A stretch of 22,583 nt of DNA, from UHGV virus genome UHGV-1292143; one strand, 5' to 3'. The position numbers were made by a program, and so were the translations under genes. This document shows positions 1-21,906 of this stretch, piece by piece (position 1 is the stretch's first letter; the number at the start of each line of letters is the position of its first letter). This stretch comes from a virus. The notes under the pieces are model-generated. The model was not told the origin of the DNA and did no database searches. It saw only the letters and a program-made list of their open reading frames with translations.

Positions 1-202
1 CCCGGCATCCAACGCCATTCATGGCCATATCAATGATTTTCTGGTGCGTACCGGGCTGAGAGGCGGTGTAAGTGAACTGTAGTTGCCATGTTTTACGGCA
101 ATGAGAGCAGAGATAGCGCTGATGTCCGGCAGTGCTTTTGCCGTTACGCACCACGCCTTCAGTAGCGGAGCAGGAAGGACATCTGATGGAAATGGAAGCC
201 AC
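1..202 (-). CDS. insA: IS1 InsA, N-terminal part (3' end lies outside the window)
   Basis: Minus-strand frame starting at GTG (200-202) translates to [51 protein letters not shown]..., the InsA zinc-finger N-terminus; the start sits at IS1 position 56 as expected. Confidence 0.75.
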
Positions 203-257
203 GCAAGCACCTTAAAATCACCATCATACACTAAATCAGTAAGTTGGCAGCATTACC
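1..257 (-). mobile_element. IS1-family insertion sequence, partial; the element continues beyond the window start
   Basis: Reverse complement of 1-257 aligns to the first ~257 bp of IS1. The terminal inverted repeat at 235-257 has one mismatch to the canonical GGTGATGCTGCCAACTTACTGAT. By eye this copy is roughly 10% divergent from the canonical copy at the right edge. Confidence 0.85.
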
Positions 258-383
258 CAGATACCAGTCCCCCCATATCAAGAACATTGGCTAACGTATA
301 AGCGGCTTTTTGCTGGAATGATGGATCTTGTCCTGATTTAAGCCCAAACGCTCGACGTTGCGCTTCTGTATCATTCCAACCGG

Positions 384-902
384 TTAAGCGAATTCCCAAA
401 AACGCAAATCAACGATCGCTTCTTTGAATTCCGCGTCGTCTTCAGGTGGCAATGCTGCACGGCGCATCTCCAGCATTTCCATTGCCCAACCATCAAGCGG
501 CACGATACGCCATTGATAAGGTACTCCCTCTACAGGCACCTCAATATCGTCAATGAACGGTTCCACTTCCAGGACCTGGATATCTTCAGCCAGAGCATTC
601 ATATCGCAATCGTAATAATGCTCTTTACCGCAATGTTTACAGGTGTAGGTGAATGTCTCGACCGGTGTTTCACGGGAGCCGGTAAATATCCACCATAACG
701 CGGTAATCCGGTCCTGCGCCGTCCATGTCAGGGGATCATGTTTCGCGGGTTCAGCCAGCAAGGCTTTTAAATACGCCGTTGTCTGTTGTTCTTGTTCCTC
801 CGGTGTTATCGAGTTGAAACGCATCGCATCAGCAATATTTGGCTGACGGAACTGGATCAATTCAGTTGGCCGCGATGGTAGCGGGAAAAGGGGTAAAAGC
901 AT
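384..902 (-). CDS. hypothetical phage morphogenesis protein (172 aa, CKHCGKEHYYDCD cysteine cluster)
   Basis: ORF with GGAG Shine-Dalgarno 6 nt upstream of the ATG at 902; tightly packed behind 917-1528 and 1539-2105 in one minus-strand operon. Function not recognisable from sequence. Confidence 0.6.
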   Translation of the reverse strand: MLLPLFPLPSRPTELIQFRQPNIADAMRFNSITPEEQEQQTTAYLKALLAEPAKHDPLTWTAQDRITALWWIFTGSRETPVETFTYTCKHCGKEHYYDCDMNALAEDIQVLEVEPFIDDIEVPVEGVPYQWRIVPLDGWAMEMLEMRRAALPPEDDAEFKEAIVDLRFWEFA

Positions 903-916
903 CCTTGCTCCTTAAT

Positions 917-1528
917 TCAAAGAGAAAAACTAAAGCCCAGAAGGGAAGCCAAAGAACTTGAGGATTGGTTAAACGTGCTGTGCAATGCGAAGGTCATTGG
1001 GAATGACTTAAATTCCGTAACCTGATCCCGCGCATAGGTGACATCGCCGGTAGTGACCGGGAATACCGTCATCTCATTTTCCAGTTTGGTTAAGCCGGAA
1101 GACAGCAACCGATAAATACGCACATTGAGCAAATATTTAGACGGTATATTCCCGGTACCGTCCGGATTGATCACCCGACTTTTTGCCGTCTTAAACCAGT
1201 CCAAAACGAGGCCATCAACGGTATCCCTGACCATCATTGTTATCTGCCCAGGCGAACGCTCTGTTGGTTGAAGGATATTCCCTCCGCCGATTTTAATCGT
1301 TTCATATTCGATGCTGTAATCGTGGTAGGTAATGTCTTTGGCAAAGAAGTCTGCCCCCTCCAGTCCATCAACTTCGACAGAGAACTGCCATCCTTGCGCG
1401 AACAGCATTTTGTTCATGATGATTGACGTCAGCTTACCAACTTCCCGCTCACCAACGCCGGAGCCAAATAATGTCGTCGTTAATGCCGAAGATACATAAG
1501 ACTTTACTGAAGCAACATTAAGCCCCAT
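917..1528 (-). CDS. phage structural protein, possibly tail-tube or tube-initiator-like (203 aa)
   Basis: ORF in the operon with 384-902 and 1539-2105. Sequence pattern loosely resembles T4 gp19-type tube proteins; this is a by-eye impression, not a search result. Confidence 0.45.
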   Translation of the reverse strand: MGLNVASVKSYVSSALTTTLFGSGVGEREVGKLTSIIMNKMLFAQGWQFSVEVDGLEGADFFAKDITYHDYSIEYETIKIGGGNILQPTERSPGQITMMVRDTVDGLVLDWFKTAKSRVINPDGTGNIPSKYLLNVRIYRLLSSGLTKLENEMTVFPVTTGDVTYARDQVTEFKSFPMTFALHSTFNQSSSSLASLLGFSFSL

Positions 1529-1538
1529 ATCAGCCCCC

Positions 1539-2146
<608 letters not shown>

Positions 2147-2235
2147 ATGTCATTTGTCCATTGTGCCAACTGTTATTATGGATATCATAATTCATACGAA
2201 TCGCGCTGCTACAGGATGTATAGCAACCTTAATAA

Positions 2236-3495
2236 TTATTTGAATATATCAGTTATAGTTGGGTAATTATACATCTTAAGCTTATCTCTAAATTTCATAG
2301 AAAATATAGGGTCTACCTTACATCTGTGTAAGAGCTTTGCAATCCTTAGCTCCCTCTCATTCATAATATCTTTGTATTCGCTATCAATACTTTCCTGAAT
2401 TTGCTGATTCTCAACAGGAGACGGTTTAGTAATTTTATCCCATTGATAAGTTGGCTTCGTAGTGTAATTTAAACTATCATCATTTTGGAGTAATGCCTCA
2501 AGACGAGACTTAGCATTTTCATATAGCATTCTATCTTGGGGCAACATACTTGCAACACGCATTTCCATTTCAATTTCCGATACTATCATTTCAAGTTGAC
2601 GTTTTTCCGTTTCAATAGCTAAAAGAAATGGAAATAGGGCTTCTTGCTTAATCATTTGACAATTCAAATTATTGTTTATGCCACTAAGTAATTTTGTAAA
2701 TGAGAACTTCTTTAAAGGCTGCTGATTTATAACACTCTGTCTAACTGGCATTGTGTAGTTCGGTGTTTTTTCAAGTGTTTTCTTCACTTGCTCTATAGCA
2801 ACATTAGGAGTGTTGAAAACAGTCTTTGCTGGAATACGTAGCACCATAAACCCCTCCTTTATTGAATATTCATCACGAATACGATCTCGCTCTATTTGTT
2901 CTGGGGATGAATGCCATGCTGCACCATCAATTTCTATAATTTGGCGTCCATTTACGACAAAATCAAAACGATAACGCTTATAGGGCACTTGCATTTCAAG
3001 CACTAAGTCAGGAGAAACTAACATTCCAGATTTAGGTTTAAGATTAAACTCTGCAACCATTTTACGAAGAAATGCCTCCTCAGCCGGAGATTCGCAACCT
3101 TTGCAAAATATATCAAGCCAGTTTTCTGCGTCAGCGTCAACAGTTTGCCACCATGCTAACAGTCCACGTCGGTGTCCATATAATCGTTCATCTGACGGTT
3201 TTGTTAATGGCTTTGTTAACGGTTTAACTAAGGGTTCATTTAACGGCTTTAATAACGGCTTAAATAACGGCTTATTTAACGAATTTAATAACGATTTATT
3301 TAATGGTTTGATTGACGGTCTATTTGACGACTCAATCGGTGGTTTAGATGATGATTTGTTTTTTTTATCAAAACCTACGATAGTTATATATGCTACATAT
3401 AGCATCATGCCTGCAACAGGCCATACACATGGATAAATCACGTAACACAACAGTAATAGAACAATAGTCCCAAAAAATGTTAACTTCTTCCGCAT
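2236..3495 (-). CDS. membrane-anchored protein with DUF559/Vsr-like (PD-(D/E)xK-type) endonuclease-like domain (419 aa)
   Basis: N-terminus MRKK + hydrophobic hairpin (FFGTIVLLLLCYVIYPCVW / MMLYVAYITIVGF); Pro/Lys-rich tetrapeptide repeat linker; core YRFDFVVNGRQIIEIDGAAWHSSPEQIERDRIRDEYSIKEGFMVLRIP matches the DUF559 signature (RxDF ... IEIDG..H ... D..R ... G..VLR); C-terminal ~190 aa predicted helical, unknown. Confidence 0.6.
   Translation of the reverse strand: MRKKLTFFGTIVLLLLCYVIYPCVWPVAGMMLYVAYITIVGFDKKNKSSSKPPIESSNRPSIKPLNKSLLNSLNKPLFKPLLKPLNEPLVKPLTKPLTKPSDERLYGHRRGLLAWWQTVDADAENWLDIFCKGCESPAEEAFLRKMVAEFNLKPKSGMLVSPDLVLEMQVPYKRYRFDFVVNGRQIIEIDGAAWHSSPEQIERDRIRDEYSIKEGFMVLRIPAKTVFNTPNVAIEQVKKTLEKTPNYTMPVRQSVINQQPLKKFSFTKLLSGINNNLNCQMIKQEALFPFLLAIETEKRQLEMIVSEIEMEMRVASMLPQDRMLYENAKSRLEALLQNDDSLNYTTKPTYQWDKITKPSPVENQQIQESIDSEYKDIMNERELRIAKLLHRCKVDPIFSMKFRDKLKMYNYPTITDIFK
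3195..3356 (-). repeat. about 13 imperfect tandem 12-bp units inside the 2236-3495 CDS, encoding K-P-L-x tetrapeptide repeats
   Basis: Plus-strand units such as TTAATAACGGCT / TAAATAACGGCT / TATTTAACGAAT; translated on minus strand as LNKP LFKP LLKP LNEP LVKP LTKP LTKP. Confidence 0.8.
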
Positions 3496-3720
3496 ACCAA
3501 ACTCTTTGCATCAATAAAGGGGACTGGCTTATATAATCAAATCACATGCCCGAAATAAAAGATGACCAACACCAACGGAAATCACACTCTAAACTAATAT
3601 ACATTAACACTTAATATCGCCATCACAATTGATTGATTATGCTAATTTAAAAATGATATTTTTACAGAGAATATACAGCTCTACAAGATGACTATTACAC
3701 CAAAATTTAAAAAAATCATT

Positions 3721-3766
3721 GGCAACCTTGTAGAATTGATATTAACAATCGATTCTACGGGTTGCC
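3721..3766 (-). terminator. long inverted repeat (GGCAACCTTGTAGAAT-N15-ATTCTACGGGTTGCC) followed on the minus strand by a T-run; likely terminator of the 4874-3811 transcript
   Basis: 15-16 bp arms with one mismatch; minus-strand sequence after the hairpin is AATGATTTTTTTAAATTTTGG. The 15-nt loop is large for a terminator. Confidence 0.45.
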
Positions 3767-3810
3767 ATTTGCTACATAGAGTGTAATAAGAGAGGATGGT
3801 TCAACGGAAA

Positions 3811-4350
3811 TTACCACCAGCTACTGGCTTTTTTCTCCCTTGCTTTACCTTCGCTTTGCAATAAATCCTTACTCCCTGAAGAGATGTTACGATTTGCATC
3901 AGCTTCAGACTGAATCACATCAGTTCTTGCAGCCCTTTCCTTTAGCTCCTGCTCAATGAAATCGTTTTCTCTCTTAACTCGAGCAGCTTTCGCTTGTAGC
4001 TCAAGCTTCATTTTCTCAAGTTCTAATTTACGAAGCTCATCTTCATAAGCCTGATTTCGCTTTTTCTCTGCGGTCAATTCAGCTTCACGCTTCGCTCTGC
4101 GCTCATTTTCCGCCGCTATACGAGCTTTCTCGCGGGCATTTGCAGCTGCCGCAGCCCTCTCTCTTCTTAAACGTTCAGCATTTTCTTGCTTGCGAATTTG
4201 CTCTAGTCTGGCATCCTCCAGCTGCTGTTCTCTTGCTCGACCTTCACTTTCTGCCTGGGCAATAGCAGCTATTTGACTCTGCAATGAATTAGCAAATACA
4301 TTGCCTGTATTCAAAGCAGCCAAACATAAATAACAAATAATTTTCTTCAT
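3811..4350 (-). CDS. secreted highly charged ER/K-rich coiled-coil protein (179 aa)
   Basis: N-terminal signal peptide MKKIICYLCLAALNTGNVFA; mature part is E/R/K/A-rich helical (TolA-domain-II-like composition). Starts 11 nt after the stop of the upstream lipoprotein gene. Confidence 0.65.
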   Translation of the reverse strand: MKKIICYLCLAALNTGNVFANSLQSQIAAIAQAESEGRAREQQLEDARLEQIRKQENAERLRRERAAAAANAREKARIAAENERRAKREAELTAEKKRNQAYEDELRKLELEKMKLELQAKAARVKRENDFIEQELKERAARTDVIQSEADANRNISSGSKDLLQSEGKAREKKASSWW

Positions 4351-4361
4351 ATCTTATTGAG

Positions 4362-4874
4362 TTATTTTTTATCAGGACATGTAGCATTAGGTTGAATGCG
4401 CGTTTCGTTTTCTTTCGTTGAAATCAAAGCCGCGATTCCAGGGGCAAATTGGCAAGCTCTACCAACCTGTGTAGATGTATAGACTTTAGTACCTTCCTTG
4501 TAAGTAAGAGATACACCTTCAACAATTGATTTATCACTTACCATAGAACCAGCAGCTGCGCCAAGAGCTCCACCGCCAGCACCACCAGCAACTGCACCCA
4601 AGGTAGAAGTTCCTTTAATATTATATCCAGCAACACTACCAGCTACTGCACCGAGAACAGCACCGAAAGTCTGAGCTGCTTGTTTATTAGCTGTATTATC
4701 AACTTTTACTTTGGCTGGGAGAACAGAGATTATATTTACTACTCTTGTTTCTTGTTTTGAATTAAGTTGGGCTGTGTCGTACACATCTGCCGCATATTCA
4801 GCACCATTAGACTGACACCCTGAGAGAAAAATTGCAGAAACAACCATGACGCATAAAGAAGAAATTTTAGCCAT
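4362..4874 (-). CDS. SlyB/Pcp-like glycine-zipper outer-membrane lipoprotein (about 170 aa from the chosen start)
   Basis: Lipobox AIFLSG|C after a signal peptide; Gly/Ala zipper GAVLGAVAGSVAGYNIKGTSTLGAVAGGAGGGALGAAAGS; overall resemblance to E. coli SlyB. Start chosen at ATG 4872-4874 (MAKISS...); alternatives are 4883 or the track start 4934. Confidence 0.65.
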   Translation of the reverse strand: MAKISSLCVMVVSAIFLSGCQSNGAEYAADVYDTAQLNSKQETRVVNIISVLPAKVKVDNTANKQAAQTFGAVLGAVAGSVAGYNIKGTSTLGAVAGGAGGGALGAAAGSMVSDKSIVEGVSLTYKEGTKVYTSTQVGRACQFAPGIAALISTKENETRIQPNATCPDKK

Positions 4875-5163
4875 TAGAATCATCCCAGAAAAAAAATATA
4901 ATCCAAGAAAATCTATCACATAAGCCAAATACAAACAAGATTAATCCTATTGATGTATATCAATTATTATAAAAAATACGATCTTCATTGCTGAAGCTGC
5001 GTTATATTAAGTCTAAAAAAATCAACTATCGACATTATATGCTCTGCTAATAATTTACACTTGATTTAGTTGAGTTGGTTTAATATTGACACTAACTCAC
5101 TCTCTAATTATATACAATTTCCAATTTTATATGCGCATATATGGAAACCTATACCAACAGCAT

Positions 5164-5180
5164 GTTGCTCTAATAAATTT
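5164..5180 (+). promoter_or_regulatory. C1-repressor-type operator (P1 Op51-like) overlapping a promoter
   Basis: GTTGCTCTAATAAATTT, one mismatch to the P1 C1 operator consensus ATTGCTCTAATAAATTT as I recall it; TTGCTC acts as a -35 with TAAGTC 17 bp downstream (5188-5193). Confidence 0.6.
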
Positions 5181-5218
5181 GTCTTTTTAAGTCACGAATG
5201 CTATCTTTTCGCATCATA

Positions 5219-5247
5219 TTGACCTTTTAATCGTTCAGGCTTATAGT
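5219..5247 (+). promoter_or_regulatory. sigma70-type promoter for c4-icd-ant (-35 TTGACC, 17-bp spacer, -10 TATAGT)
   Basis: TTGACC at 5219-5224 and TATAGT at 5242-5247; sits downstream of the operator, as for the constitutive second promoter of P1 immI. Confidence 0.5.
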
Positions 5248-5367
5248 TCCGCCGTCGTAGCAAATTCTGCGACCGGGTTTAGCAGCCTGAATGATTGTGC
5301 GGACAGCCGCAGATATCCGATATTGCGGTATTTTTGTGTCCGTAAAACCGCGTTACGCCCAAATTAT

Positions 5368-5444
5368 GGTGGGACGTGATGGGGAGGCTTCGGCCTGCTG
5401 GTTTCACAATCGCCAGTCTGCTAACCCCGTCACGTCCTGCCACC
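5368..5444 (+). ncRNA. c4: C4-like antisense RNA (77 nt) of the immunity-I region
   Basis: GGTGGGACGTGATGGGG ... CCCCGTCACGTCCTGCCACC closes a long stem; internal hairpins AGGC-UUCG-GCCU and CUGG-UUUCACAAUCG-CCAG. Loop sequence CACAATC is complementary to GATTGTG at 5293-5299 and at 5477-5483, the latter just upstream of the icd GAGG Shine-Dalgarno (5483-5486). Confidence 0.55.
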
Positions 5445-5494
5445 TGTTTAGCAGCGGGTAGCAGGTTGTTAAACCTGATTGTGAGGCCGTAACT

Positions 5495-5716
5495 ATGGTT
5501 AATGCCAATCCTTACGCACGCCAAGAATTCATCTGGCGTTTCTATTCCTGTAAAAAACACCACTATCACTTCGTCATCGCAGCAACAGAAGACGAAGCAC
5601 GCTCTCAATTGCCTGATGGCCCCTGCATTTTTACTGCCCGTTTTTCAACTAACTCGCGCAATTCACTTAGTTACTGGAACCTCCCCTTCTCTGCCGACGT
5701 TCAGGGGGATTTATGA
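5495..5716 (+). CDS. icd: Icd-like small protein (73 aa), translationally coupled to ant
   Basis: 73-aa ORF whose stop overlaps the ant start (ATGA at 5713-5716); position downstream of c4 matches P1 immI organisation. Confidence 0.65.
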   Translation: MVNANPYARQEFIWRFYSCKKHHYHFVIAATEDEARSQLPDGPCIFTARFSTNSRNSLSYWNLPFSADVQGDL

Positions 5717-6747
5717 AAAAACCTCTCGTCACCCGTAATGAAATAGCCGAAGCGATCGCCCTGCATACAACCTGTATGCCGACACGGGAGATCCCCGGCG
5801 CAATTGCCAACTATTTCATGATAACCAGACGTTTTTATACCCGAACAGATAAGGCTGTGATCAACAAGCTACTGATAGCCGAGATCAGGGATTATTTGAT
5901 TGAACAAGGACGTCTACGTTACGCAACAGTGGCAGCAGAAATGAGAAAGGAGGCACACAGAGTGACCGGTAAAAATTTGAATATTGAAAAACCAGCACCT
6001 GTTACGTCAGCTACGCCAACACCAGCCGTGAATGTCATCCCCAACATCGGAGACACAATCGACAGCCAAACATTGTTGAAGATGGTCAATGAGGCACGGA
6101 AATTATGTAGCGAAAAACCAGTTCGCAATAATGATTTCATTGCCAGAGTTAAGGATGAACTTGAAGGAGAAACCTACGAAATTTTCGTAGGTCAAAAAAA
6201 CGGCGCAGAAATAGATATTATAACAATGACCTACAAACAAGCCCTGCGAGTTGCCGCGCGCGAGTCAAAAGCGGTCCGCCGTTCGCTGATCGACAAACTG
6301 GAAGAATTACAGCAGGCAAACTCCCCTACCCCATCGATCCCCCAGACATTACCAGAAGCCCTACGCCTGGCTGCCGAGTTAGCAGAACAGAAAATGCAGT
6401 TGGAACAACAGCTGGTGGCCGCAGCCCCTAAAGTCGATTTTGCCGACCGGGTATCAGTGGCCAATGGAATCCTGATCGGGAACTTTGCAAAGGTCGTTGG
6501 ACTTAAGCAAAACGCCCTTTTCTCATGGTTGCGCCAGAACGGCATTCTCATGGCTTTTGGTGCGCGCAAAAACGTACCGCGCCAACAGTACATCAACGCC
6601 GGGTATTTCACGGTGAAAGAAGTGGTGTTGGATGATGAAAATGGCTACCAGATACGGCTGACGCCCCAATTAACGGGTAAAGGCCAGCAGTGGTTAACTC
6701 GCAAGCTACTTGATGCTGGTTTGTTAAAACCAGTAGCAATAGGTTAA
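5713..6747 (+). CDS. ant: antirepressor Ant-like protein with C-terminal KilA-C/ANT domain (344 aa)
   Basis: C-terminal region PKVDFADRV...IGNFAKVVG...LFSWLRQNGIL...GYFTVKE...GKGQQWL is a KilA-C-type antirepressor domain; gene order c4-icd-ant. Confidence 0.65.
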   Translation: MKKPLVTRNEIAEAIALHTTCMPTREIPGAIANYFMITRRFYTRTDKAVINKLLIAEIRDYLIEQGRLRYATVAAEMRKEAHRVTGKNLNIEKPAPVTSATPTPAVNVIPNIGDTIDSQTLLKMVNEARKLCSEKPVRNNDFIARVKDELEGETYEIFVGQKNGAEIDIITMTYKQALRVAARESKAVRRSLIDKLEELQQANSPTPSIPQTLPEALRLAAELAEQKMQLEQQLVAAAPKVDFADRVSVANGILIGNFAKVVGLKQNALFSWLRQNGILMAFGARKNVPRQQYINAGYFTVKEVVLDDENGYQIRLTPQLTGKGQQWLTRKLLDAGLLKPVAIG

Positions 6748-6758
6748 CAAAAGAAAAA

Positions 6759-6784
6759 ACCTGCCAGCAAACTGACAGGTTTCT
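6759..6784 (+). terminator. rho-independent terminator after ant
   Basis: ACCTGCCAG-CAAA-CTGACAGGT hairpin (one mismatch) followed by TTCT. Confidence 0.5.
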
Positions 6785-6824
6785 GAGCAGATCGACCAAC
6801 CCGATCTGGATCGAGTTAGAAAAA

Positions 6825-6841
6825 TTTGCTCTAATAAATTT
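6825..6841 (+). promoter_or_regulatory. C1-repressor-type operator (P1 Op53-like) in front of kilA
   Basis: TTTGCTCTAATAAATTT; same extended promoter architecture as at 5164 (TTGCTC ... 17 bp ... TAAGTG). Confidence 0.6.
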
Positions 6842-6910
6842 CGTTTTCTAAGTGCAAAGAATCACCATTTCGAGCTGGTGATTGAAGGTTGATGCAAATT
6901 TGGAGAAAAA

Positions 6911-7711
6911 ATGCAACAAACATTCAATGCGGATATGAATATATCAAACCTTCATCAAAATGTCGATCCTTCAACCACTCTTCCCGTTATTTGTGGTGTT
7001 GAAATTACGACCGACCGCGCTGGCCGTTACAACCTTAATGCTCTACACAGAGCGAGCGGACTCGGTGCCCATAAAGCGCCAGCTCAATGGCTAAGAACGC
7101 TGTCAGCTAAACAGCTCATCGAAGAGCTTGAAAAAGAAACTATGCAGAATTGCATAGTTTCGTTCGAAGGCCGTGGCGGCGGCACTTTTGCCCATGAATT
7201 GCTCGCAGTGGAGTACGCTGGTTGGATTTCTCCCGCGTTTCGGCTGAAGGTAAACCAGACATTTATCGACTATCGAGCTGGAAGATTACAACCTGCTATT
7301 CCGCAGAGTCTCCCTGAAGCTCTCCGTTTGGCTGCCGAACTGGCAGAGCAAAAGCAACGGCTGGAGCAAAAAATGCTTATGGATGCACCTAAAGTCGAAT
7401 TCGCCGAACGCGTTGCTACCGCCAGCGGGGTTCTAATCGGCAACTATGCCAAAGTGCTCGGCCTGGGCCAAAACTATCTCTTCACCTGGTTGCGTGATAA
7501 CGGAATTCTGATCGCAACCGGTGAACGCAGGAACGTCCCCAAACAAGAATACATATCCCGTGGATATTTCACCCTTAAAGAAACCGTGATCGATACAAGC
7601 AATGGAAGCAGGATTTCTTTCACGACTCGTATAACCGGCAAAGGTCAGCAGTGGCTGATGAAGCGATTGCTTGATGCTGGTGTGCTGGTACCTGTCGCGG
7701 CAACGCGCTAA
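6911..7711 (+). CDS. kilA: KilA-like protein: KilA-N domain plus KilA-C domain (266 aa)
   Basis: N-terminal VICGVEITTDRAGRYNLNALHRASGLGAHKAPAQWLRT...FAHELLAVEYAGWISPAFRLKV (KilA-N-like); C-terminal domain about 65% identical to the Ant C-terminus; GGAGA Shine-Dalgarno before the ATG. Confidence 0.7.
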   Translation: MQQTFNADMNISNLHQNVDPSTTLPVICGVEITTDRAGRYNLNALHRASGLGAHKAPAQWLRTLSAKQLIEELEKETMQNCIVSFEGRGGGTFAHELLAVEYAGWISPAFRLKVNQTFIDYRAGRLQPAIPQSLPEALRLAAELAEQKQRLEQKMLMDAPKVEFAERVATASGVLIGNYAKVLGLGQNYLFTWLRDNGILIATGERRNVPKQEYISRGYFTLKETVIDTSNGSRISFTTRITGKGQQWLMKRLLDAGVLVPVAATR

Positions 7712-7740
7712 CAGACGTAGTAAGAACCACCAGCATTGTA

Positions 7741-8241
7741 ATGCTGGCTAAAGTCACTTTCCTGAGCTGTATAACGATGAGCGATTTTACTTTTTCTGGC
7801 TATGAATTGGCCTGCTTTGTAACACACTCCGGTCTATCCCGTAGCGCCGGGCATATCCTGTCGCAATGTGCAAATCTCGCGGCAACAACCAGTGAATACT
7901 TCATTCACAAGCCTCACCGCCTGATCGCGGCAGAAACTGGTTATAGCCAATCAACCGTCGTTCGTGCATTCCGTGAAGCTGTAAACAAAGGAATCCTGTC
8001 TGTAGAGATTGTTATCGGCGATCACCGTGAACGTCGCGCTAACCTGTACCGGTTTACACCATCCTTTTTGGCCTTCGCACAACAAGCCAAAAATGCGCTG
8101 ACTGAAAGCAAATTAAAGATCTCTTCAGCGGCAACCAAGGTTAAAGCTGTTATCGCTAAGACATTGGCTTTATTTAATTTTATATCCACACCCCATGTCA
8201 AAATGATACCCCCTCCCCCTGTCAGGATGACGTGGCAATAA
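7741..8241 (+). CDS. repL: RepL-like lytic replication protein, N-terminal reading frame (166 aa); appears truncated by a frameshift
   Basis: Immediately follows kilA as in P1; frame ends at 8239-8241 just after a CCCCCTCCCCCT tract. Confidence 0.55.
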   Translation: MLAKVTFLSCITMSDFTFSGYELACFVTHSGLSRSAGHILSQCANLAATTSEYFIHKPHRLIAAETGYSQSTVVRAFREAVNKGILSVEIVIGDHRERRANLYRFTPSFLAFAQQAKNALTESKLKISSAATKVKAVIAKTLALFNFISTPHVKMIPPPPVRMTWQ

Positions 8242-8585
8242 AGAATAAGAAGTCACAAGTTAAAAAAACAAAAAGATCAGTTTCCGGCGGTGCCGGAACG
8301 TCCAGACTCAAAAAATTGACTTCATGGATCGCTGAGGCAAAAGCAAAGGCTGACAATCTGCGGTTATCCCAAAAACGCGCTCAAAAACATGAGTTCAAGC
8401 AGAAAGTAGAGGCGGCTGCGCGGAAATATGCTTACCTGAAGAACAAGCGTTCGCCTGATATTGGCGGGATATCAAACTTCGATAACCTACCGCATTGCAT
8501 GACGGTAAACGAAGCTCTTAATGCGGTTTTAGCCAAAAATAAAGATAACGATCAATGGGGTATACCGGCGGGATTCAGAGGGTGA
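8232..8585 (+). CDS. continuation of repL in a different frame (117 aa), or a separate small basic protein
   Basis: Frame is open from 8178 with no ATG. Restoring 1 nt would fuse it to 7741-8241 to give 281 codons, the length I recall for P1 RepL. Confidence 0.4.
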   Translation: MAIKNKKSQVKKTKRSVSGGAGTSRLKKLTSWIAEAKAKADNLRLSQKRAQKHEFKQKVEAAARKYAYLKNKRSPDIGGISNFDNLPHCMTVNEALNAVLAKNKDNDQWGIPAGFRG

Positions 8586-8799
8586 TAGATTGCTCTAATC
8601 TGGAGTCACCTGGCGTTTTCAGTATGGATTTTCTTTGGCGCGGTCTGGCCATTAGGGATCATGTTTGCTGCAACGTTTCTTCTGATGTGGGTATTCACCC
8701 TTCCAGGTGATTTCTATAGAAAAAAAGCCAGACATTGATACAATCGCTGCGGGTGCTTGAGGCTATCTGCTTCAGGCATTACCCGAAAAGCAGATAGAA

Positions 8800-8871
8800 G
8801 AAAGCCCCAGATAACATTACGCGTCCTGCAAGACGCTTAACATTAATCTGAGGCAATATCTATGCTTAGCA
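8800..8871 (-). ncRNA. possible Sok-like antisense RNA
   Basis: Minus-strand promoter-like TTGACC (8901-8906) - 18 bp - TAATCT (8877-8882); the transcript would be complementary to the mok start region at 8862. Inferred from hok/sok architecture only. Confidence 0.3.
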
Positions 8872-9068
8872 TACGTAGATTAGCCTCTTACCGACCAAAA
8901 GGTCAAGGAGAAGCAGGCTATGAAGCAGCAAAAAGCGATGTTAATCGCTCTGATCGTCATCTGTTTAACCGTCATTGTGACGGCACTGGTAACGAGGAAA
9001 GACCTCTGCGAGGTACGAATCCGAACCGGCCAGACGGAGGTCACTGTCTTCACAGCCTACGAATCTGA
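8862..9068 (+). CDS. mok-like leader ORF overlapping hok in another frame
   Basis: 68-aa ORF starting upstream of hok and overlapping it, as in hok/mok/sok loci. Confidence 0.4.
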   Translation: MLSIRRLASYRPKGQGEAGYEAAKSDVNRSDRHLFNRHCDGTGNEERPLRGTNPNRPDGGHCLHSLRI

Positions 9069-9075
9069 AAGGTAA
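8920..9075 (+). CDS. hok: Hok/Gef-family type I toxin (51 aa)
   Basis: MKQQKAMLIALIVICLTVIVTALVTRKDLCEVRIRTGQTEVTVFTAYESER: N-terminal transmembrane helix plus conserved TRKDLCEV and FTAYE motifs; AAGGAG Shine-Dalgarno 9 nt upstream. Confidence 0.85.
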   Translation: MKQQKAMLIALIVICLTVIVTALVTRKDLCEVRIRTGQTEVTVFTAYESER

Positions 9076-9097
9076 GAGACCTGGCGGGGAGAGATCC

Positions 9098-10435
9098 CAT
9101 AAGCGCTAACTTAAGGGTTGAACCATCTGAAGAATGCGACGCCTCGGTGCCTCGTTAAGACGATGCCTCGCGTTCTTCAATTGCGTTTTGTAGGCTGTCA
9201 GGGATACTGTCCCACGAATGGCCACCTGTAAGCTCCAGATGACCATTTTTGTTATTCTCCACAACGAGTTAGTTCTTCTTTTCGGATCCGGCACTTCTGG
9301 GGGGGAAATCCAGCGATGGCTGGATTATGTCGTCAATTAAAAATGCGGCGAGTAGATTAGCAAATATCCACGCTTTCGCGAGTTCAGGTTCCTTTGCACG
9401 CAAAGCATCCAGGTGCAGCAAACTTTTGAGCCGCTTAAAAGCCAGTTCAATTTGCCATCGCAGACGGTAACAATCAGCCACTTGCTCTGCTGAATATTCA
9501 TCTTCCGGTAATGATGTTAGCAATAGCACATGGCCCGCTGCTTCCAGCGTTTCCGCCTGAACTACTCGTCCTTTTCGACGATTCTCGCTGAGCAGTCGGG
9601 TTTTACTGATTAATGCTTTTTCGGGAGGAAGTGATACGGCAATGAGACGTGCCGGAAAGGGAGCTCCGGCTTTTTTATTACCTGAATTGCCTATCATTAC
9701 AGTGGTTTCACCGTTCTTACCGCAATCCAGCCCGCGCAGAAAACCCATCATGTCAAAGCGCATTCCTTCTGCAGTTAACCAGCGCAATCCTCGCCAGTGA
9801 ACCCGGACGATATAATCAGCTTCTCCAAAAGCAAGTGAGCGGATACATTCGGGACGCGAACCGAATCCCCGGTCAGCAATGCGTATCTCGTCTGCCGTTT
9901 GCGCAAATCGGTCCAGCCGTTCAGCGTCTCTGCTGTCGGTTAGCTCAAAATCAGTGAACTGACAGGTATGAGGATCATATCCCATATGTAGTCGCCATTC
10001 AGCGCTGCCGCCCCCGGGCGCACTGATTGCTGTTCCATCGACAAGACGCAATCTCTTTCCGCTTGTACAACCCGTAACTGCGGCGCGTACAGCAAGTGTT
10101 TGTGCGGCAAGTATGCCAAACCAGTCGGCGGCATTCCGCAGCCGCTTCAGGAGAGCCACGTCAGATAATGTTGCAACGTCATGGAGCTGAGCCCATGCAG
10201 TGACTTCACGTAATGACATCCCCCCGGGCCGTAAGCCAGCCCCAGACGTAGCAGAGTTGCAGCATCACGAATTTCGCGGCGGCGGGTTAGAGCCCCGGCA
10301 TTACGTGCCGAAGTATCCAGTTCTTCGGGCTTACCAATATGGGCCAGAATTGCTGACCAGTTATCGTGAGAGTAATTCATCGGCACGTTAAATCATATCA
10401 GGCGTAATACCACAACCCTTAAGTTAGCGCTTATG
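9098..10435 (-). mobile_element. IS186-like insertion sequence (IS4 family), 1338 bp, with a 10-bp target duplication
   Basis: Perfect 23-bp terminal inverted repeats CATAAGCGCTAACTTAAGGGTTG; flanking direct repeat GGAGAGATCC (9088-9097 and 10436-10445) within a GGGG-N-CCCC target, typical for IS186. Confidence 0.85.
9269..10386 (-). pseudogene. IS186 transposase, split by a -1 frameshift in a G-run
   Basis: N-terminal 56 aa (MPMNYSHDNW...GPGG) and the 316-aa DDE body (MSLREV...YRLRWQIELAFKRLK) are in different frames. The junction is a C6 run at 10220-10225 (G6 on the coding strand); restoring one G makes a continuous ~372-codon ORF. Confidence 0.7.
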
Positions 10436-10491
10436 GGAGAGATCCCCGCCACTCTTCGTGTGTCAGGTATCCTCAATGCACCCTTTCCTCT

Positions 10492-10522
10492 CCAAATAAA
10501 AAAGCTCCCGAAGGAGCTTTAA
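10492..10522 (-). terminator. rho-independent terminator ending the minus-strand late operon
   Basis: Minus strand reads AAAGCTCC-TTCG-GGAGCTTT followed by TTTTTATTT, immediately after the stop of the 10540-11049 gene. Confidence 0.6.
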
Positions 10523-10539
10523 AATACAAGGGATGACTC

Positions 10540-11049
10540 TTAATCCCACTCAATCCAGTTGTAGACGATACGAAGTGACGGGCGCACAGCGGCAGTCACA
10601 TCTTCGGTACTAAAGTCGATTGCATCACTGTAGATTTTGCAGTCCAACATTTCAATTGTTGTAGCAGCTTTTGTCACAGCGTTAACCCCGGAAGCTTTGG
10701 ATTCAGGGGTAGCAGCCATCGTGATATCAACATAGTCCTTCGCCGCAATGCGATCCTTAATGAACTGAAGAATATCGCCTTCGATAGTCTCCACGCACTG
10801 GACCTGGATTTCCCCAGAGTTTCGAATTGCTCCGTGCTGGTTGAACTTCACACCATTCGGACCATAGTCCTCCACATCCTCTCGAGTCATTTCAGGGATT
10901 TGCGACGTGCGAACCAGTACGCTGATATCTTCATGGCCTGCAAAAGTGAGCTGGAATTCAGAAGATACCAGTCGTTCGCCTTTGGCCGCGTTGGCAGTAT
11001 AGCGGCCCTTAATAAATTTACGGTTTCCCTTAGTGTTATTGTGCCCCAT
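10540..11049 (-). CDS. phage tail tube-like protein (169 aa)
   Basis: Pattern resembles T4 gp19-family tube proteins (FQLTF... ; C-terminal LRIVYNWIEWD versus gp19 ...LALDYWE); AAGGA Shine-Dalgarno. Assignment from memory. Confidence 0.5.
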   Translation of the reverse strand: MGHNNTKGNRKFIKGRYTANAAKGERLVSSEFQLTFAGHEDISVLVRTSQIPEMTREDVEDYGPNGVKFNQHGAIRNSGEIQVQCVETIEGDILQFIKDRIAAKDYVDITMAATPESKASGVNAVTKAATTIEMLDCKIYSDAIDFSTEDVTAAVRPSLRIVYNWIEWD

Positions 11050-20196: not shown

Positions 20197-20448
20197 TTAG
20201 TTACCTCTGATAGCGCGGTTGTAATCATTAACGTTGCGATTCTTCCTGTTAATCCCCATCAGCATCGTTTCTGTATCGAGGATATACGCTGGCAGATCAT
20301 CAAAATATTCACTGCTAAACTCTGGCATCCTGCACATAAATGCACTTTTGGGGGCAGGGTGGTTAACCTTTGTCGGCGTCGGCGTTAAATTCGCTGATCG
20401 ACTGCCGGAGCAACCGCTGAGTGTCAGCAGGAATGCGCTGGCGAACAT
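20197..20448 (-). CDS. o-spanin (Rz1-like outer-membrane lipoprotein), overlapping the i-spanin gene in another frame
   Basis: Signal peptide with lipobox LTLSG|C (MFASAFLLTLSGC), Pro-rich mature part (TPTPTKVNHPAPK); start taken at ATG 20446-20448; overlaps the 3' 86 bp of the i-spanin gene. Confidence 0.6.
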   Translation of the reverse strand: MFASAFLLTLSGCSGSRSANLTPTPTKVNHPAPKSAFMCRMPEFSSEYFDDLPAYILDTETMLMGINRKNRNVNDYNRAIRGN

Positions 20449-20785
20449 TACCCGCCGCAACCAGTTGTTTCTGAACTTCAGCTTTTCGTTCCATTTGCCT
20501 GTCAGCATATTTGGCTTGTTCTGATTCATTTTTCACTTCCTGGCTGTGAAAATGTTGCTCTGCTTTGTTCATCGTCTCAATGGTCTGGTTAAGATCCATT
20601 ATTGACTTATCACGTTCCTTAACAGCCTGATCAAGACTGCCAATTTTCTCCATGGCTTGCTTTAGCTGATGACGTTCCCATGCAAACCCAGCACCAACAA
20701 GTGCGCAAATCAGAACAAGAACACCAGTAGCAGCAAGTTTCTCCTTCAAAGACAAAGCTGTTTTTAACGTAGAAAAGAATGACAT
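20363..20785 (-). CDS. i-spanin (Rz-like): N-terminal transmembrane anchor plus periplasmic coiled coil (140 aa)
   Basis: MSFFSTLKTALSLKEKLAATGVLVLICALVGAGFAW, then coiled-coil region; ATG at 20783-20785 with a strong AGGAGG Shine-Dalgarno (the track start at 20812 is an upstream TTG). Confidence 0.7.
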   Translation of the reverse strand: MSFFSTLKTALSLKEKLAATGVLVLICALVGAGFAWERHQLKQAMEKIGSLDQAVKERDKSIMDLNQTIETMNKAEQHFHSQEVKNESEQAKYADRQMERKAEVQKQLVAAGNVRQRIPADTQRLLRQSISEFNADADKG

Positions 20786-21613: not shown

Positions 21614-21621
21614 GATATCTC

Positions 21622-21906
21622 CTAACTTACCTGAACCAGGCCGTCTCCGGACGCTACGGTAGATCCGCATGAAACAGGGTCACCAACGCATACGATCCCT
21701 TTACCATTGACGGTAAACCATGCCCTGGTTGATATAGCTTGCCCACCGTGCGTACTGTTTCCATCGGTATGCTGTGCATATTGCTTACCATCAACTAACA
21801 CTTCGACTCCGTTGACTTTAAGTAGTGGTTCACTCTCTACAGGAGGCCTGGATGGGAATCCTCCGTGCCCCGAACAAATGCTGTCTTTTGTTGCAATACT
21901 TGCCAC
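21622..21906 (-). CDS. PAAR-like spike-tip protein (94 aa)
   Basis: Three repeats of the PAAR-type motif (ATKDSICSGHGG; AQHTDGNSTHGG; VCVGDPVSCGSTVASGDG); GTG start. Confidence 0.55.
   Translation of the reverse strand: MASIATKDSICSGHGGFPSRPPVESEPLLKVNGVEVLVDGKQYAQHTDGNSTHGGQAISTRAWFTVNGKGIVCVGDPVSCGSTVASGDGLVQVS

What the first reader, a model, noticed from the sequence alone, without database searches (positions are those of the whole stretch)
4362..4874. Phage-plasmid-encoded SlyB-like lipoprotein adjacent to a periplasmic coiled-coil protein
SlyB-type glycine-zipper lipoproteins are host envelope-stress proteins. A mobile-element copy, translationally coupled to a secreted ER/K-rich helix-forming protein, suggests modification of the outer membrane or periplasm, for example blocking receptor access or DNA entry of competing phages.
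Basis: partly seen in the sequence, partly recalled or inferred. Interest (0 to 1): 0.5.

Follow-up and report, generated by a model that had tools for sequence, protein, structure and literature searches.

The report
Phage-plasmid copy of yfgH–yfgI envelope operon
A P1-like phage-plasmid carries its own diverged copy of the bacterial yfgH–yfgI gene pair (a SlyB-like outer-membrane lipoprotein plus a long periplasmic helix) at the site where phage P1 keeps its superinfection-exclusion genes, so it most likely remodels or toughens the host's outer membrane, but whether that also blocks other phages is untested.

Summary
Window 4362-4874 (-) encodes a 170-aa lipoprotein (lipobox LSGC, glycine zipper). 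Eleven bases downstream, 3811-4350 (-) encodes a 179-aa secreted, E/R/K/A-rich protein (Pfam DUF5384).

"SlyB-like" is correct only at superfamily level. SlyB is the sole significant solved relative by sequence, profile and fold. The pair is specifically a mobile copy of the E. coli core operon yfgH-yfgI (65% and 49% aa identity). It corresponds to Upf50.5/Upf50.0 of phage P7 (84% and 80%), annotated long ago with unknown function.

New here:
- The two genes are an obligate module: 79 of 79 informative loci across Proteobacteria.
- Copies from P1-like elements and from an unrelated myovirus prophage group apart from the Escherichia chromosomal genes.
- They are under strong purifying selection (dN/dS 0.04-0.06).
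- The cassette fills the hypervariable slot that holds simABC in P1. A third phage carries two other secreted proteins there.
- The partner is predicted to be one helix of about 24 nm, not a clear coiled coil.

Best reading: an accessory lysogenic-conversion module that builds YfgH/SlyB-type outer-membrane assemblies. Superinfection exclusion is a live but circumstantial rival. It is a new member of a known kind, of moderate interest.

The parts
4362..4874 (-). yfgH-like outer-membrane lipoprotein gene (170 aa). It has a signal peptide with lipobox LSGC, Gln at +2, a glycine-zipper helical hairpin at about residues 61-111, and a C-terminal beta domain with invariant Cys141/Cys166.
   Evidence: ORF and sequence. 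It is 65% identical to K-12 YfgH and 84% to P7 Upf50.5. SlyB is the only significant PDB relative. Secondary structure comes from the AF2 model.
3811..4350 (-). yfgI-like DUF5384 gene (179 aa). It has a cleavable-type signal peptide. The mature protein of about 158 aa is E/R/K/A-rich and predicted as one continuous helix of about 24 nm. The N-terminal half is variable and the C-terminal 75 residues are conserved, ending in SWW.
   Evidence: Pfam PF17358 at 150 bits. It is 49% identical to K-12 YfgI and 80% to P7 Upf50.0. The AF2 model has pLDDT 87 with a helix over residues 2-178.
4351..4361 (-). 11-nt spacer between the two genes (CTCAATAAGAT) with no Shine-Dalgarno sequence. This implies co-transcription and probably termination-reinitiation coupling.
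   Evidence: Read from the sequence. K-12 yfgI has AGGAGG at this position, whereas P7 and the prophage copies also lack an SD and have 3-12 nt gaps. Coupling itself is inferred.
4910..4938 (-). Candidate promoter of the cassette (TTGTTT, 17 nt, TGaTAGATT extended -10), partly conserved in P7. This is inferred only.
   Evidence: My reading of the window/P7 upstream alignment, with coordinates. The consensus scan found no minus-strand promoter at its threshold.
5164..5180 (+). C1 repressor operator (Oc4-type, GTTGCTCTAATAAATTT). It marks the right-hand boundary of the variable slot, and homology to P1 and P7 resumes at 5166.
   Evidence: Sequence, P1 and P7 operator annotation, and blast boundaries.
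2158..5165 (.). Low-GC variable 'sim slot' between pmgC and Oc4 (34-43% GC against 47-50% in the flanks). It holds the yfgHI-like cassette plus an extra 419-aa ORF.
   Evidence: Composition. Flanks are 98-99% identical to P1/P7 while the interior is diverged or absent. The simABC region is listed as variable region 4 of P1-like elements in PMC9603915.
2236..3495 (-). Additional cargo gene in the same slot, absent from P7. It encodes a 419-aa protein with N-terminal hydrophobic segments, Pro/Lys-rich repeats and a DUF559/MTES_1575 endonuclease-like domain. No functional link to the pair has been shown.
   Evidence: ORF, Pfam, weak PADLOC nuclease-domain hits, and a 1.65-kb insertion relative to P7.

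Best explanation
The two genes are an accessory ('moron', lysogenic-conversion) copy of the conserved bacterial envelope module yfgH-yfgI. It is carried in the hypervariable slot next to the immI immunity region of a P1-like phage-plasmid.

Proposed mechanism:
1. The cassette is transcribed leftward from its own promoter in the AT-rich 290 bp upstream. It lies outside the late tail operon, so it is probably expressed in the plasmid-prophage state. This step is inferred.
2. The first product is exported, lipidated at Cys20 and sorted to the outer membrane, because it has Gln rather than Asp at +2. This is read from the sequence and the established Lol sorting rule.
3. Like its relatives YfgH and SlyB, it inserts a glycine-zipper helical hairpin and oligomerises into rings. 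These rings enclose outer-membrane proteins and lipid patches and stabilise the membrane. This is inferred from homology and fold.
4. The second product is translated by coupling and secreted. It forms a helical rod of about 24 nm. Its conserved C-terminal third presumably works with the lipoprotein, while the variable but length-conserved N-terminal part acts as a spacer. This is inferred from obligate gene linkage and the predicted structure.

The net effect is a carrier cell with a reinforced or altered outer membrane. It supplies the function outright in hosts that lack the chromosomal operon, such as Salmonella Typhimurium.
For: Identity:
- 65% and 49% aa identity to K-12 YfgH and YfgI over full length.
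- Chromosomal yfgHI is present in 5419 of 5426 complete E. coli genomes at about 68% nt identity to the window cassette.

Superfamily and fold: SlyB is the only significant solved relative. Foldseek gives E 2.3e-7, TM 0.70 and 142 aligned columns.

Module: 79 of 80 genome loci with a DUF5384 gene have the YfgH-like lipoprotein directly upstream on the same strand. They span Gamma-, Beta- and Alphaproteobacteria, and the 80th locus is a 336-nt contig.

Functional constraint: dN/dS is 0.06 and 0.04 between the window and P7 alleles.

Accessory status:
- The cassette sits in a low-GC island in a known variable region.
- It shows allelic divergence of about 76-82% nt inside 98-99% identical backbones.
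- About 188 P1-like plasmids carry it, 24 of them from Salmonella.
- A second, unrelated temperate myovirus carries the pair at its prophage end, at two different integration sites.
- A ColE1-type plasmid also carries it.

Function of the relative: deleting yfgH sensitises cells to SDS/EDTA. YfgH co-purifies with BamA, LptD, OmpF/C/A and LamB and is modelled as SlyB-like rings (bioRxiv 10.64898/2025.12.22.696046). S. Typhimurium lacks orthologues (PMC11619404).
Against: - Nothing here shows expression in lysogens. The promoter is only a weak consensus match that the scan tool did not call.
- The lipoprotein model has low confidence (pLDDT 57, and below 50 across the zipper). The fold match therefore rests mainly on the beta domain and overall topology.
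- Oligomeric rings and any YfgH-YfgI contact are not demonstrated, even for the chromosomal proteins. The preprint calls its oligomer evidence predictive and never mentions YfgI.
- E. coli hosts already carry yfgHI, so 'more of the same' is not an obvious benefit.
- The phage copies form their own lineage with derived features: Lys at the hairpin tip, an SWW C-terminus and loss of the Shine-Dalgarno sequence. This hints at a specialised role.
- The slot's only characterised occupant, sim, is an exclusion system.
Confidence: 0.5

Rival explanations
1. Superinfection exclusion. The phage-evolved YfgH/YfgI pair is the functional counterpart of P1 Sim. By ringing outer-membrane receptor proteins or LPS patches, or by placing a periplasm-length rod under them, it would prevent incoming phages from completing adsorption or passing DNA through the envelope. 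Alternatively it could protect progeny from debris.
For: - It occupies the same slot as simABC, bounded by pmgC and the C1 operator.
- The 7 sim-bearing and 11 yfgHI-bearing phage records do not overlap.
- A third cassette in that slot, in Ro157c2YLVW, also encodes two signal-peptide proteins, so the slot consistently carries exported proteins.
- The phage copies form a separate clade. It has 98/100 bootstrap support for the partner and 50/100 for the lipoprotein. Both trees place it outside the Escherichia chromosomal clade, which is supported at 100/100.
- The clade has shared derived features.
- In the myovirus prophage the pair sits directly after the tail-fibre genes at the prophage end, a typical place for conversion genes.
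- YfgH binds OmpC/F/A, LamB and TonB-dependent receptors. From my own knowledge, these are classic phage receptors.
Against: - There is no homology to SimC (hhalign probabilities 1.5% and 0.3%).
- There is no PADLOC hit.
- No paper links SlyB-type proteins to exclusion.
- The slot is a general recombination hot spot, so position is weak evidence.
- Selection is strongly purifying, with no sign of an arms race.
- SlyB-type rings sit in the plane of the membrane and would not obviously cover receptor loops. This last point is inference.
Confidence: 0.28
2. The pair has a role in the element's own lytic cycle. It would hold the outer membrane together until the programmed end of lysis or reduce vesicle shedding, so that progeny are not lost to LPS-bearing debris.
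For: - The cassette is transcribed in the same direction as the late tail operon and lies immediately upstream of it.
- No terminator-like site follows it.
- A yfgH mutant shows more blebbing and outer-membrane shedding (preprint introduction).
Against: - In P7 the late promoter LPsit lies downstream of the cassette, so the cassette is not part of the late operon.
- The sim genes in the same slot are dispensable for P1 plaque formation (PMC10695390).
- This window's element has a disrupted tail operon and a split repL, yet keeps an intact, 100%-conserved cassette. That points to selection in the plasmid state.
Confidence: 0.08
3. The pair is a two-component spanin-like lysis system, with an outer-membrane lipoprotein and a periplasmic helical protein that fuse the membranes at lysis.
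For: The only support is a superficial resemblance: a lipoprotein next to a helical envelope protein.
Against: - Both proteins are orthologue-level relatives of core chromosomal genes in a non-prophage context (guaA-yfgI-yfgH-yfgG) across Proteobacteria.
- The gene order is lipoprotein first.
- The lipoprotein is 170 aa with a glycine zipper, not a short proline-rich o-spanin.
- The partner has a cleavable-type signal peptide rather than a membrane anchor.
- The genes are not in a lysis cassette.
Confidence: 0.02
4. The lipoprotein is a TraT-like surface-exclusion or serum-resistance protein.
For: The best Pfam hit by E-value is TraT (2.8e-5). TraT decamers rank 2-4 in the fold search.
Against: - The TraT Pfam score of 24.5 bits is below the gathering cut-off of 31.
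- The family profile finds no TraT chain in the PDB even at E 10.
- The Foldseek hits have E 0.08-0.18 with rmsd of about 16 Å.
- The TraT family has no DUF5384 partner.
Confidence: 0.03

Closest known systems
E. coli K-12 YfgH / YfgI (chromosomal operon between guaA and yfgG)
   Same: - Same two genes, in the same order, with a short spacer.
- 65% and 49% aa identity over full length.
- Same lipobox, glycine zipper and Cys pair.
- Same DUF5384 architecture and length (179 aa).
   Different: - This copy is carried on a phage-plasmid.
- It belongs to a separate phage clade nearest to Xenorhabdus and Pantoea chromosomal copies.
- It has Lys at the hairpin tip where enterobacterial chromosomal copies have Gly.
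- The partner ends in SWW instead of WF[NKD].
- The partner lacks the AGGAGG ribosome-binding site.
- The promoter region is unrelated.
Phage P7 Upf50.5 / Upf50.0 (also in SJ46, RCS47, phi456, JL22 and about 168 plasmids)
   Same: Same genes in the same slot of the same kind of element. Both were annotated in 2002-2004 as an outer-membrane lipoprotein and a membrane protein of unknown function similar to K-12 proteins.
   Different: - The window carries a second, rarer allele: 84% and 80% aa identity and about 76% nt identity, found in about 20 plasmids.
- Synonymous sites between the alleles are near saturation.
- The window has an extra 419-aa endonuclease-domain ORF inserted downstream.
SlyB (PhoPQ-regulated lipoprotein; cryo-EM 7OJF/7OJG, rings around BamA and lipid nanodomains)
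   Same: It has the same overall architecture: lipid anchor, strand, glycine-zipper hairpin and beta domain. It is the only significant solved relative by sequence, profile and fold.
   Different: - Only about 25% identity.
- SlyB has no DUF5384 partner gene and lacks the conserved Cys pair.
- According to the YfgH preprint, suppressor genetics differ: Mla pathway for slyB, clsA for yfgH.
P1 SimA/SimB/SimC (superimmunity / superinfection exclusion)
   Same: - Identical genomic position and orientation, between pmgC and the C1 operator of c4.
- Both encode exported proteins.
- Both are non-essential accessory cargo.
- The two cassettes are mutually exclusive in the phage records.
   Different: There is no detectable homology. 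Sim has an experimentally described exclusion phenotype, whereas this pair has none tested.
Phage-encoded receptor-blocking lipoproteins (T5 Llp, Cor of phi80/N15); recalled from memory, not tested here
   Same: They are phage-encoded outer-membrane lipoproteins that act on outer-membrane proteins.
   Different: Those are small single proteins that plug FhuA. No sequence or fold relation was tested or seen, and they have no periplasmic partner.

Membership tests
YfgH family (glycine-zipper OM lipoprotein) | Full-length sequence similarity to E. coli YfgH | tested here: met
   65% identity over 163 aa, E 2.7e-78. About 68% nt identity to yfgHI in 5419 of 5426 E. coli genomes.
YfgH family (glycine-zipper OM lipoprotein) | Lipobox with outer-membrane sorting signal | tested here: met
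   LSGC at residues 17-20 with Gln at +2. Actual localisation cannot be tested here.
YfgH family (glycine-zipper OM lipoprotein) | Glycine-zipper 2TM domain (Pfam PF05433/PF13441/PF13488) above curated threshold | tested here: inconclusive
   The window protein scores 15.7-17.2 bits against cut-offs of 24-29. The GxxxG/A pattern is nevertheless conserved, and many close homologues carry precomputed PF13441/PF05433 hits.
YfgH family (glycine-zipper OM lipoprotein) | DUF5384 (yfgI) gene immediately downstream on the same strand | tested here: met
   The gap is 11 nt in the window. The same arrangement is found in 79 of 80 genome loci.
YfgH family (glycine-zipper OM lipoprotein) | Outer-membrane stabilisation phenotype (SDS/EDTA tolerance, OMP retention) | not testable with these tools
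   Known only for chromosomal YfgH (bioRxiv 10.64898/2025.12.22.696046).
YfgI / DUF5384 (PF17358) | Pfam model above gathering score | tested here: met
   150 bits against a cut-off of 25, E 6.5e-44, covering profile positions 5-145 of 145. 49% identity to K-12 YfgI.
SlyB superfamily | Sequence and profile similarity to SlyB over full length | tested here: met
   phmmer gives E 1.1e-5 for residues 9-162 against 5-154 of 155. The family profile gives E 8.7e-10. This is remote homology, not orthology.
SlyB superfamily | Same fold as the solved SlyB protomer | tested here: met
   Foldseek to 7ojf_A gives E 2.3e-7, probability 1.00, TM 0.58 (query) and 0.70 (target), rmsd 3.6 Å over 142 columns. 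Caveat: the model has mean pLDDT 57 and the hairpin is below 50.
SlyB superfamily | Oligomeric ring enclosing OMPs or lipid nanodomains | not testable with these tools
   No multimer prediction is available here. For YfgH itself this rests only on AlphaFold3 models in the preprint.
TraT surface-exclusion lipoprotein (PF05818) | Pfam model above gathering score, or a significant match to solved TraT | tested here: not met
   24.5 bits is below the cut-off of 31. The profile search of the PDB returns no TraT chain at E ≤ 10. Foldseek gives E 0.08-0.18 with rmsd of about 16 Å.
P1 Sim superinfection-exclusion system | Homology to SimC | tested here: not met
   hhalign probability is 1.5% against the partner family and 0.3% against the lipoprotein family.
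P1 Sim superinfection-exclusion system | Same locus, exported products | tested here: met
   Both lie between pmgC and Oc4, and both carry signal peptides. This shows positional analogy only.
P1 Sim superinfection-exclusion system | Blocks infection after adsorption | not testable with these tools
   This needs plating, adsorption and DNA-entry assays.
Two-component spanin | Membrane-anchored i-spanin plus short o-spanin lipoprotein in a lysis cassette | tested here: not met
   The partner has a cleavable-type signal peptide. The lipoprotein is 170 aa with a glycine zipper. Gene order is reversed, the genes are not near lysis genes, and the homologues are core chromosomal genes.
Known anti-phage defence systems (PADLOC-DB 2.0) | Match to any defence-protein model | tested here: not met
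   Neither protein has a hit at E ≤ 0.01.

The most novel reading that the evidence does not exclude
The phage-borne yfgHI lineage is a previously unrecognised kind of superinfection-exclusion or receptor-shielding system. It would have been derived by capture and specialisation of a housekeeping outer-membrane nanodomain module. A SlyB-type ring would corral receptor proteins or LPS, and a roughly 24-nm periplasm-length helix docked beneath it would obstruct tail-tube or DNA passage. It would be interchangeable with P1 sim at the same locus. The clade-specific changes (Lys at the membrane-distal hairpin tip, the C-terminal Trp-Trp, and translational coupling) would be the adaptations for that role.
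Probability: 0.25. Interest if true: 0.75.

Novelty: new member of a known kind. Interest (0 to 1): 0.4.

Why it matters
YfgH has only just been proposed as a second SlyB-like outer-membrane stabiliser, and YfgI has no assigned mechanism. This work adds three points.
- The two genes are an obligate pair across Proteobacteria.
- Temperate phages of two unrelated types, plus a small plasmid, have repeatedly recruited the pair.
- In P1-like elements it alternates with the sim exclusion genes.

This yields two concrete, cheap hypotheses. YfgI is a functional partner of YfgH and should be studied with it. And the phage copy alters phage susceptibility or envelope robustness of lysogens. P1-like phage-plasmids are widespread in E. 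coli and Salmonella from animals and humans and often carry resistance genes, so a cargo that hardens the outer membrane could affect fitness and tolerance of carriers to bile, detergents or antimicrobials. If the module merely duplicates a host function, the finding is ordinary cargo.

Tried and rejected
- **TraT lead.** TraT was the best Pfam E-value and ranked 2-4 in the fold search. I rejected it because the score is below the curated cut-off, the profile search of the PDB finds no TraT, and the rmsd is about 16 Å.
- **'Lambdoid phage TL-2011b also carries the pair'.** Rejected. Its copy is 100% identical to K-12 YfgH/YfgI. The last 3.5 kb of that record is 99% identical to the K-12 chromosome, including yfgG, so it is host flank. 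The same artefact explains about 57 IMG/VR contigs that have chromosomal-type yfgHI about 530 nt from the contig end.
- **PHROG 1277 label 'DNA methyltransferase'.** This is an annotation error. The label has also been copied into RefSeq phage records.
- **Solved structures for the partner.** There were none, by sequence or by profile. I did not run a fold search on a single long helix because it would be uninformative.
- **PADLOC.** No hits for the pair.
- **Literature.** No paper mentions DUF5384, upf50.5 or upf50.0. None links SlyB with superinfection exclusion. The P1 genome paper (PMC523184) is not held.
- **Promoter and terminator scan.** It found nothing on the minus strand. The promoter I propose is a hand reading of a two-sequence alignment.
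- **Homology between SimC and either protein.** None found.
- **Spanin reading.** Rejected on architecture and on the chromosomal, non-prophage distribution.
- **Lost call.** One bootstrap script returned no answer and was rerun with a faster distance method.
Full report
**1. What is in the sequence**

On the minus strand, window 4362-4874 is an ATG-to-TAA ORF of 170 aa. It starts MAKISSLCVMVVSAIFLSGC. The only lipobox is LSGC at residues 17-20, and the residue after the lipidated Cys is Gln, so there is no Asp inner-membrane retention signal. Residues 66-112 are a dense GxxxG/A glycine zipper. Two cysteines, C141 and C166, are invariant in 64 homologues.

Eleven nucleotides downstream, 3811-4350 encodes 179 aa with a signal-peptide-like N-terminus (…NTGNVFA|NS). 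Its mature part is 69% E/R/K/A/Q/D. RefSeq annotates both CDSs identically in plasmid pTetA_020022, which is 99.97% identical to window 3-10966.

The window as a whole is a P1-like phage-plasmid. It contains pmgB/tub/pmgC, the C4 antisense RNA and its targets, icd, ant, kilA, repL, hok/sok, tail sheath, parB/parA and repA.

**2. What the proteins are**

Pfam gives only sub-threshold hits for the lipoprotein: TraT at 24.5 bits against a cut-off of 31, and glycine-zipper families at about 16-17 bits. The partner is a clear DUF5384 match at 150 bits. PHROGs place both in phage families 1277 and 1094, and 1277 carries the erroneous label 'DNA methyltransferase'.

A tblastn search against phages finds the pair in P7, where it is annotated Upf50.5 and Upf50.0. 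It also finds it in SJ46, RCS47, phi456, JL22 and three other P1-like records, at 84% and 80% aa identity.

A distant DNA search of 5426 complete E. coli genomes hits 5419 of them at about 68% identity, on the chromosomal genes annotated yfgH and yfgI. Direct comparison with a K-12-type chromosome gives 65% identity (E 3e-78) to YfgH and 49% (E 5e-59) to YfgI, both over full length. The pair is therefore a mobile copy of the yfgH-yfgI operon.

**3. Is it SlyB-like?**

At superfamily level, yes.
- SlyB (7OJF/7OJG) is the only significant PDB match by single sequence. E is 1.1e-5 and nearly the whole of both proteins aligns.
- It is also the only match with a 64-sequence family profile, at E 8.7e-10.
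- The AlphaFold2 model has low confidence (mean pLDDT 57, hairpin below 50). Its topology is strand 42-59, helices 61-85 and 92-111, then a beta domain.
- Foldseek against the PDB returns SlyB as the only significant hit: E 2.3e-7, TM 0.70 normalised to the target, 142 columns.

TraT decamers come next in the fold search but are not significant, and the profile search does not find them.

The partner has no solved relative. It is predicted with good confidence (pLDDT 87) as one uninterrupted helix over residues 2-178. That corresponds to about 24 nm for the mature chain.
- Heptad signal is weak, and residues 62-100 contain almost no hydrophobic positions.
- Family length is tightly conserved: median 179, interquartile range 176-181.
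- The N-terminal half varies in sequence, while the last 75 residues or so are conserved.

'Helix-forming' is supported. 'Coiled-coil' is not shown.

**4. The pair is an obligate module**

A scan of one genome per species found 80 loci with a DUF5384 gene. In 79 of them a YfgH-like lipoprotein ORF lies directly upstream on the same strand, and the exception is a 336-nt contig. The loci span Enterobacterales, Pasteurellales, Aeromonadales, Vibrionales, Pseudomonadales, Moraxellales, Nitrosomonas, two alphaproteobacteria and one verrucomicrobial MAG.

The recent preprint that characterises YfgH as a SlyB-like outer-membrane stabiliser reports SDS/EDTA sensitivity of the mutant and suppression by clsA. 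It also reports co-purification with BamA, LptD, OmpF/C/A, LamB, FyuA and ShuA, and ring models from AlphaFold3. It does not mention YfgI.

The only phenotype on record for yfgI is nalidixic-acid sensitivity (PMC3536626). In S. Typhi the operon (srgIL) is SdiA-regulated, and S. Typhimurium lacks it (PMC11619404).

**5. Genomic setting**

Homology to P1 and P7 backbones is 96-99% on both sides. It stops at window 2157/2163 (the pmgC side) and resumes at 5166, which is the C1 operator Oc4. The interval between is a low-GC island of 34-43%, against 47-50% in the flanks.

The same interval holds different cargo in different elements.
- In P1 it holds simA-simB-simC, the superimmunity/exclusion genes.
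- In P7 it holds upf50.5-upf50.0.
- In Ro157c2YLVW it holds two unrelated ORFs that both begin with signal peptides.

A survey of 77 P1-like elements lists simABC as one of eight hypervariable regions (PMC9603915). In the phage collection, the 7 sim-bearing and 11 yfgHI-bearing records do not overlap. In PLSDB about 188 plasmids carry the lipoprotein at 80% identity or more: 168 have the P7 allele and 20 the window allele. SimC is found in 141 plasmids. SimC shows no homology to either protein.

The window differs from P7 in two ways.
- It carries a diverged allele of the cassette, at about 76-82% nt identity with synonymous sites near saturation. dN/dS is 0.06 for the lipoprotein and 0.04 for the partner, which indicates old alleles exchanged by recombination under strong purifying selection.
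- It has a 1.65-kb insertion encoding a 419-aa protein with hydrophobic N-terminal segments, Pro/Lys repeats and a DUF559 endonuclease-like domain.

**6. Other mobile copies**

A 72%-identical lipoprotein with its DUF5384 partner lies at the end of a myovirus prophage that has lambda-like head genes and P2-like tail genes. It sits directly after the tail-fibre and DUF4376 genes. In several E. coli assemblies this prophage is integrated next to aspS/yecD, and in strain 52F4 it is integrated in ompW, so the pair travels with the prophage.

A 7.5-kb ColE1-type mobilisable plasmid carries the lipoprotein and a DUF5384 gene with an in-frame stop.

Neighbour-joining trees of both proteins place the P1-like and myovirus copies together.
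- Bootstrap support for this phage clade is 98/100 for the partner and 50/100 for the shorter, more conserved lipoprotein.
- Both trees place the phage copies outside the Escherichia chromosomal clade, which has 100/100 support.
- The nearest chromosomal relatives are from Xenorhabdus and Pantoea.

All four phage copies share three features.
- They have a Lys at the tip of the zipper hairpin, where enterobacterial chromosomal copies have Gly.
- The partner's C-terminus is SWW rather than WF[N/K/D].
- They have no Shine-Dalgarno sequence before the partner gene, whereas K-12 has AGGAGG.

Two apparent further phage occurrences are artefacts. TL-2011b and about 57 IMG/VR contigs contain the host's own yfgHI as flanking DNA beside a prophage integration site.

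**7. Interpretation**

Firm conclusions:
- The genes are real and constrained.
- The lipoprotein belongs to the YfgH branch of the SlyB superfamily, and its partner is YfgI/DUF5384.
- The two always travel together.
- This copy is accessory cargo in a recombination hot spot of a P1-like element.

Inferred steps:
- outer-membrane localisation;
- ring formation;
- contact between the two proteins;
- expression in the lysogen from a weak extended -10-like promoter at about 4910-4938, which the scan tool did not call;
- translational coupling.

The most economical reading is a lysogenic-conversion module that reinforces or alters the outer membrane of the carrier (confidence about 0.5). This fits the persistence of an intact cassette in an element whose tail operon and repL are damaged. 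It also fits the cassette's presence in Salmonella plasmids, although one search lists those hosts only as Salmonella enterica, not by serovar. Only S. Typhimurium is reported to lack the operon.

The main rival, at about 0.28, is that the phage lineage has been specialised for superinfection exclusion. The arguments for it are the slot, the exported nature of all three known cassettes there, the separate clade with derived features, and the fact that YfgH binds proteins that serve as phage receptors. None of this is direct evidence.

Spanin and TraT readings fail their membership tests.

**8. Novelty and score**

The genes have been annotated in P7 for two decades, and the family is known. 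This is a new member (a second allele) of a known kind, with an untested role in the phage context. Interest is moderate at 0.4. A specialist would not be surprised by a membrane-protein moron. However, the obligate YfgH-YfgI pairing, the periplasm-length helix and the alternation with sim make two open questions directly testable: what YfgI does, and what phages gain from SlyB-type proteins.

Noticed in passing
window 2236-3495 (-): A 419-aa ORF lies on a 1.65-kb insertion (2158-3811) that P7 lacks. It has two N-terminal hydrophobic segments, KPLxKP-type Pro/Lys repeats, and then a DUF559/MTES_1575 endonuclease-like domain. PADLOC gives weak hits to the nuclease domains of PDC-S37 and Hhe. 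A membrane-anchored nuclease in the sim slot could be a defence or exclusion gene.
   Followed up: partly
L173 3227-4402 (phage vB_EcoM-Ro157c2YLVW, same slot): This is a third, unrelated cassette between pmgC and the C1 operator. Its two ORFs, of 215 and 158 aa, both have N-terminal signal peptides and no informative Pfam match. All three known occupants of this slot therefore encode exported proteins.
   Followed up: partly
window 1-902: An IS1 end lies at about 1-256 and a 130-nt sit fragment at 257-386. pmgB is truncated to 172 of about 276 aa. The tail operon is therefore disrupted, as in pTetA_020022, and the element is probably a defective phage-plasmid.
   Followed up: partly
window 7741-8585 (+): repL is split into two overlapping ORFs, 7741-8241 and 8232-8585. 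The nearly identical plasmid annotates it as frameshifted. Lytic replication may be impaired, or this may be a sequencing error.
   Followed up: no
L005 (TL-2011b) and L116-L172 (IMG/VR contigs): Many 'viral' records contain the host's own yfgH-yfgI about 530 nt from a contig end, because a prophage integrates beside guaA/yfgI and the predicted boundaries overshoot. This contaminates PHROGs 1277 and 1094. The wrong name 'DNA methyltransferase' has spread to RefSeq phage records.
   Followed up: yes
window 3811-4350 and 4362-4874; L001, L087, L088, L092: Three features are shared by all four phage copies and are absent from chromosomal enterobacterial copies. There is a Lys at the hairpin tip of the lipoprotein (NIKGTS against NVGSGS). 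The partner ends in SWW rather than WF[N/K/D]. There is no Shine-Dalgarno sequence before the partner gene. Whether these are functional is unknown.
   Followed up: partly
L086 (pZF34-7kb, ColE1-type plasmid) 836-1943: This small mobilisable plasmid carries a YfgH-like gene and a DUF5384 gene interrupted by an in-frame stop. An identical lipoprotein appears on a 7.7-kb contig labelled Acinetobacter sp. YH16052 (L009), which is probably the same plasmid.
   Followed up: partly
window 8751-8925 (+): A sok antitoxin RNA scores 114 bits against Rfam. In the related plasmid a hok-type toxin is annotated nearby, so this is a post-segregational killing module inserted after repL.
   Followed up: no
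window 20197-20529 (-) and 20825-21670 (-): The backbone's own lipoprotein mlp (labelled 'Rz-like spanin / lipoprotein' by PHROGs) lies close to ppfA. This is a second lipoprotein plus putative periplasmic protein pair on the same element, also of unknown function.
   Followed up: no
BFVD hits to model m22f8ed399a25: A few other viral proteins share the SlyB-like glycine-zipper fold at E < 1e-3, for example a YMGG-like protein of Pseudomonas jumbo phage Phabio and several unnamed entries. Phage-encoded SlyB-like proteins may therefore be more widespread than P1-like elements.
   Followed up: no
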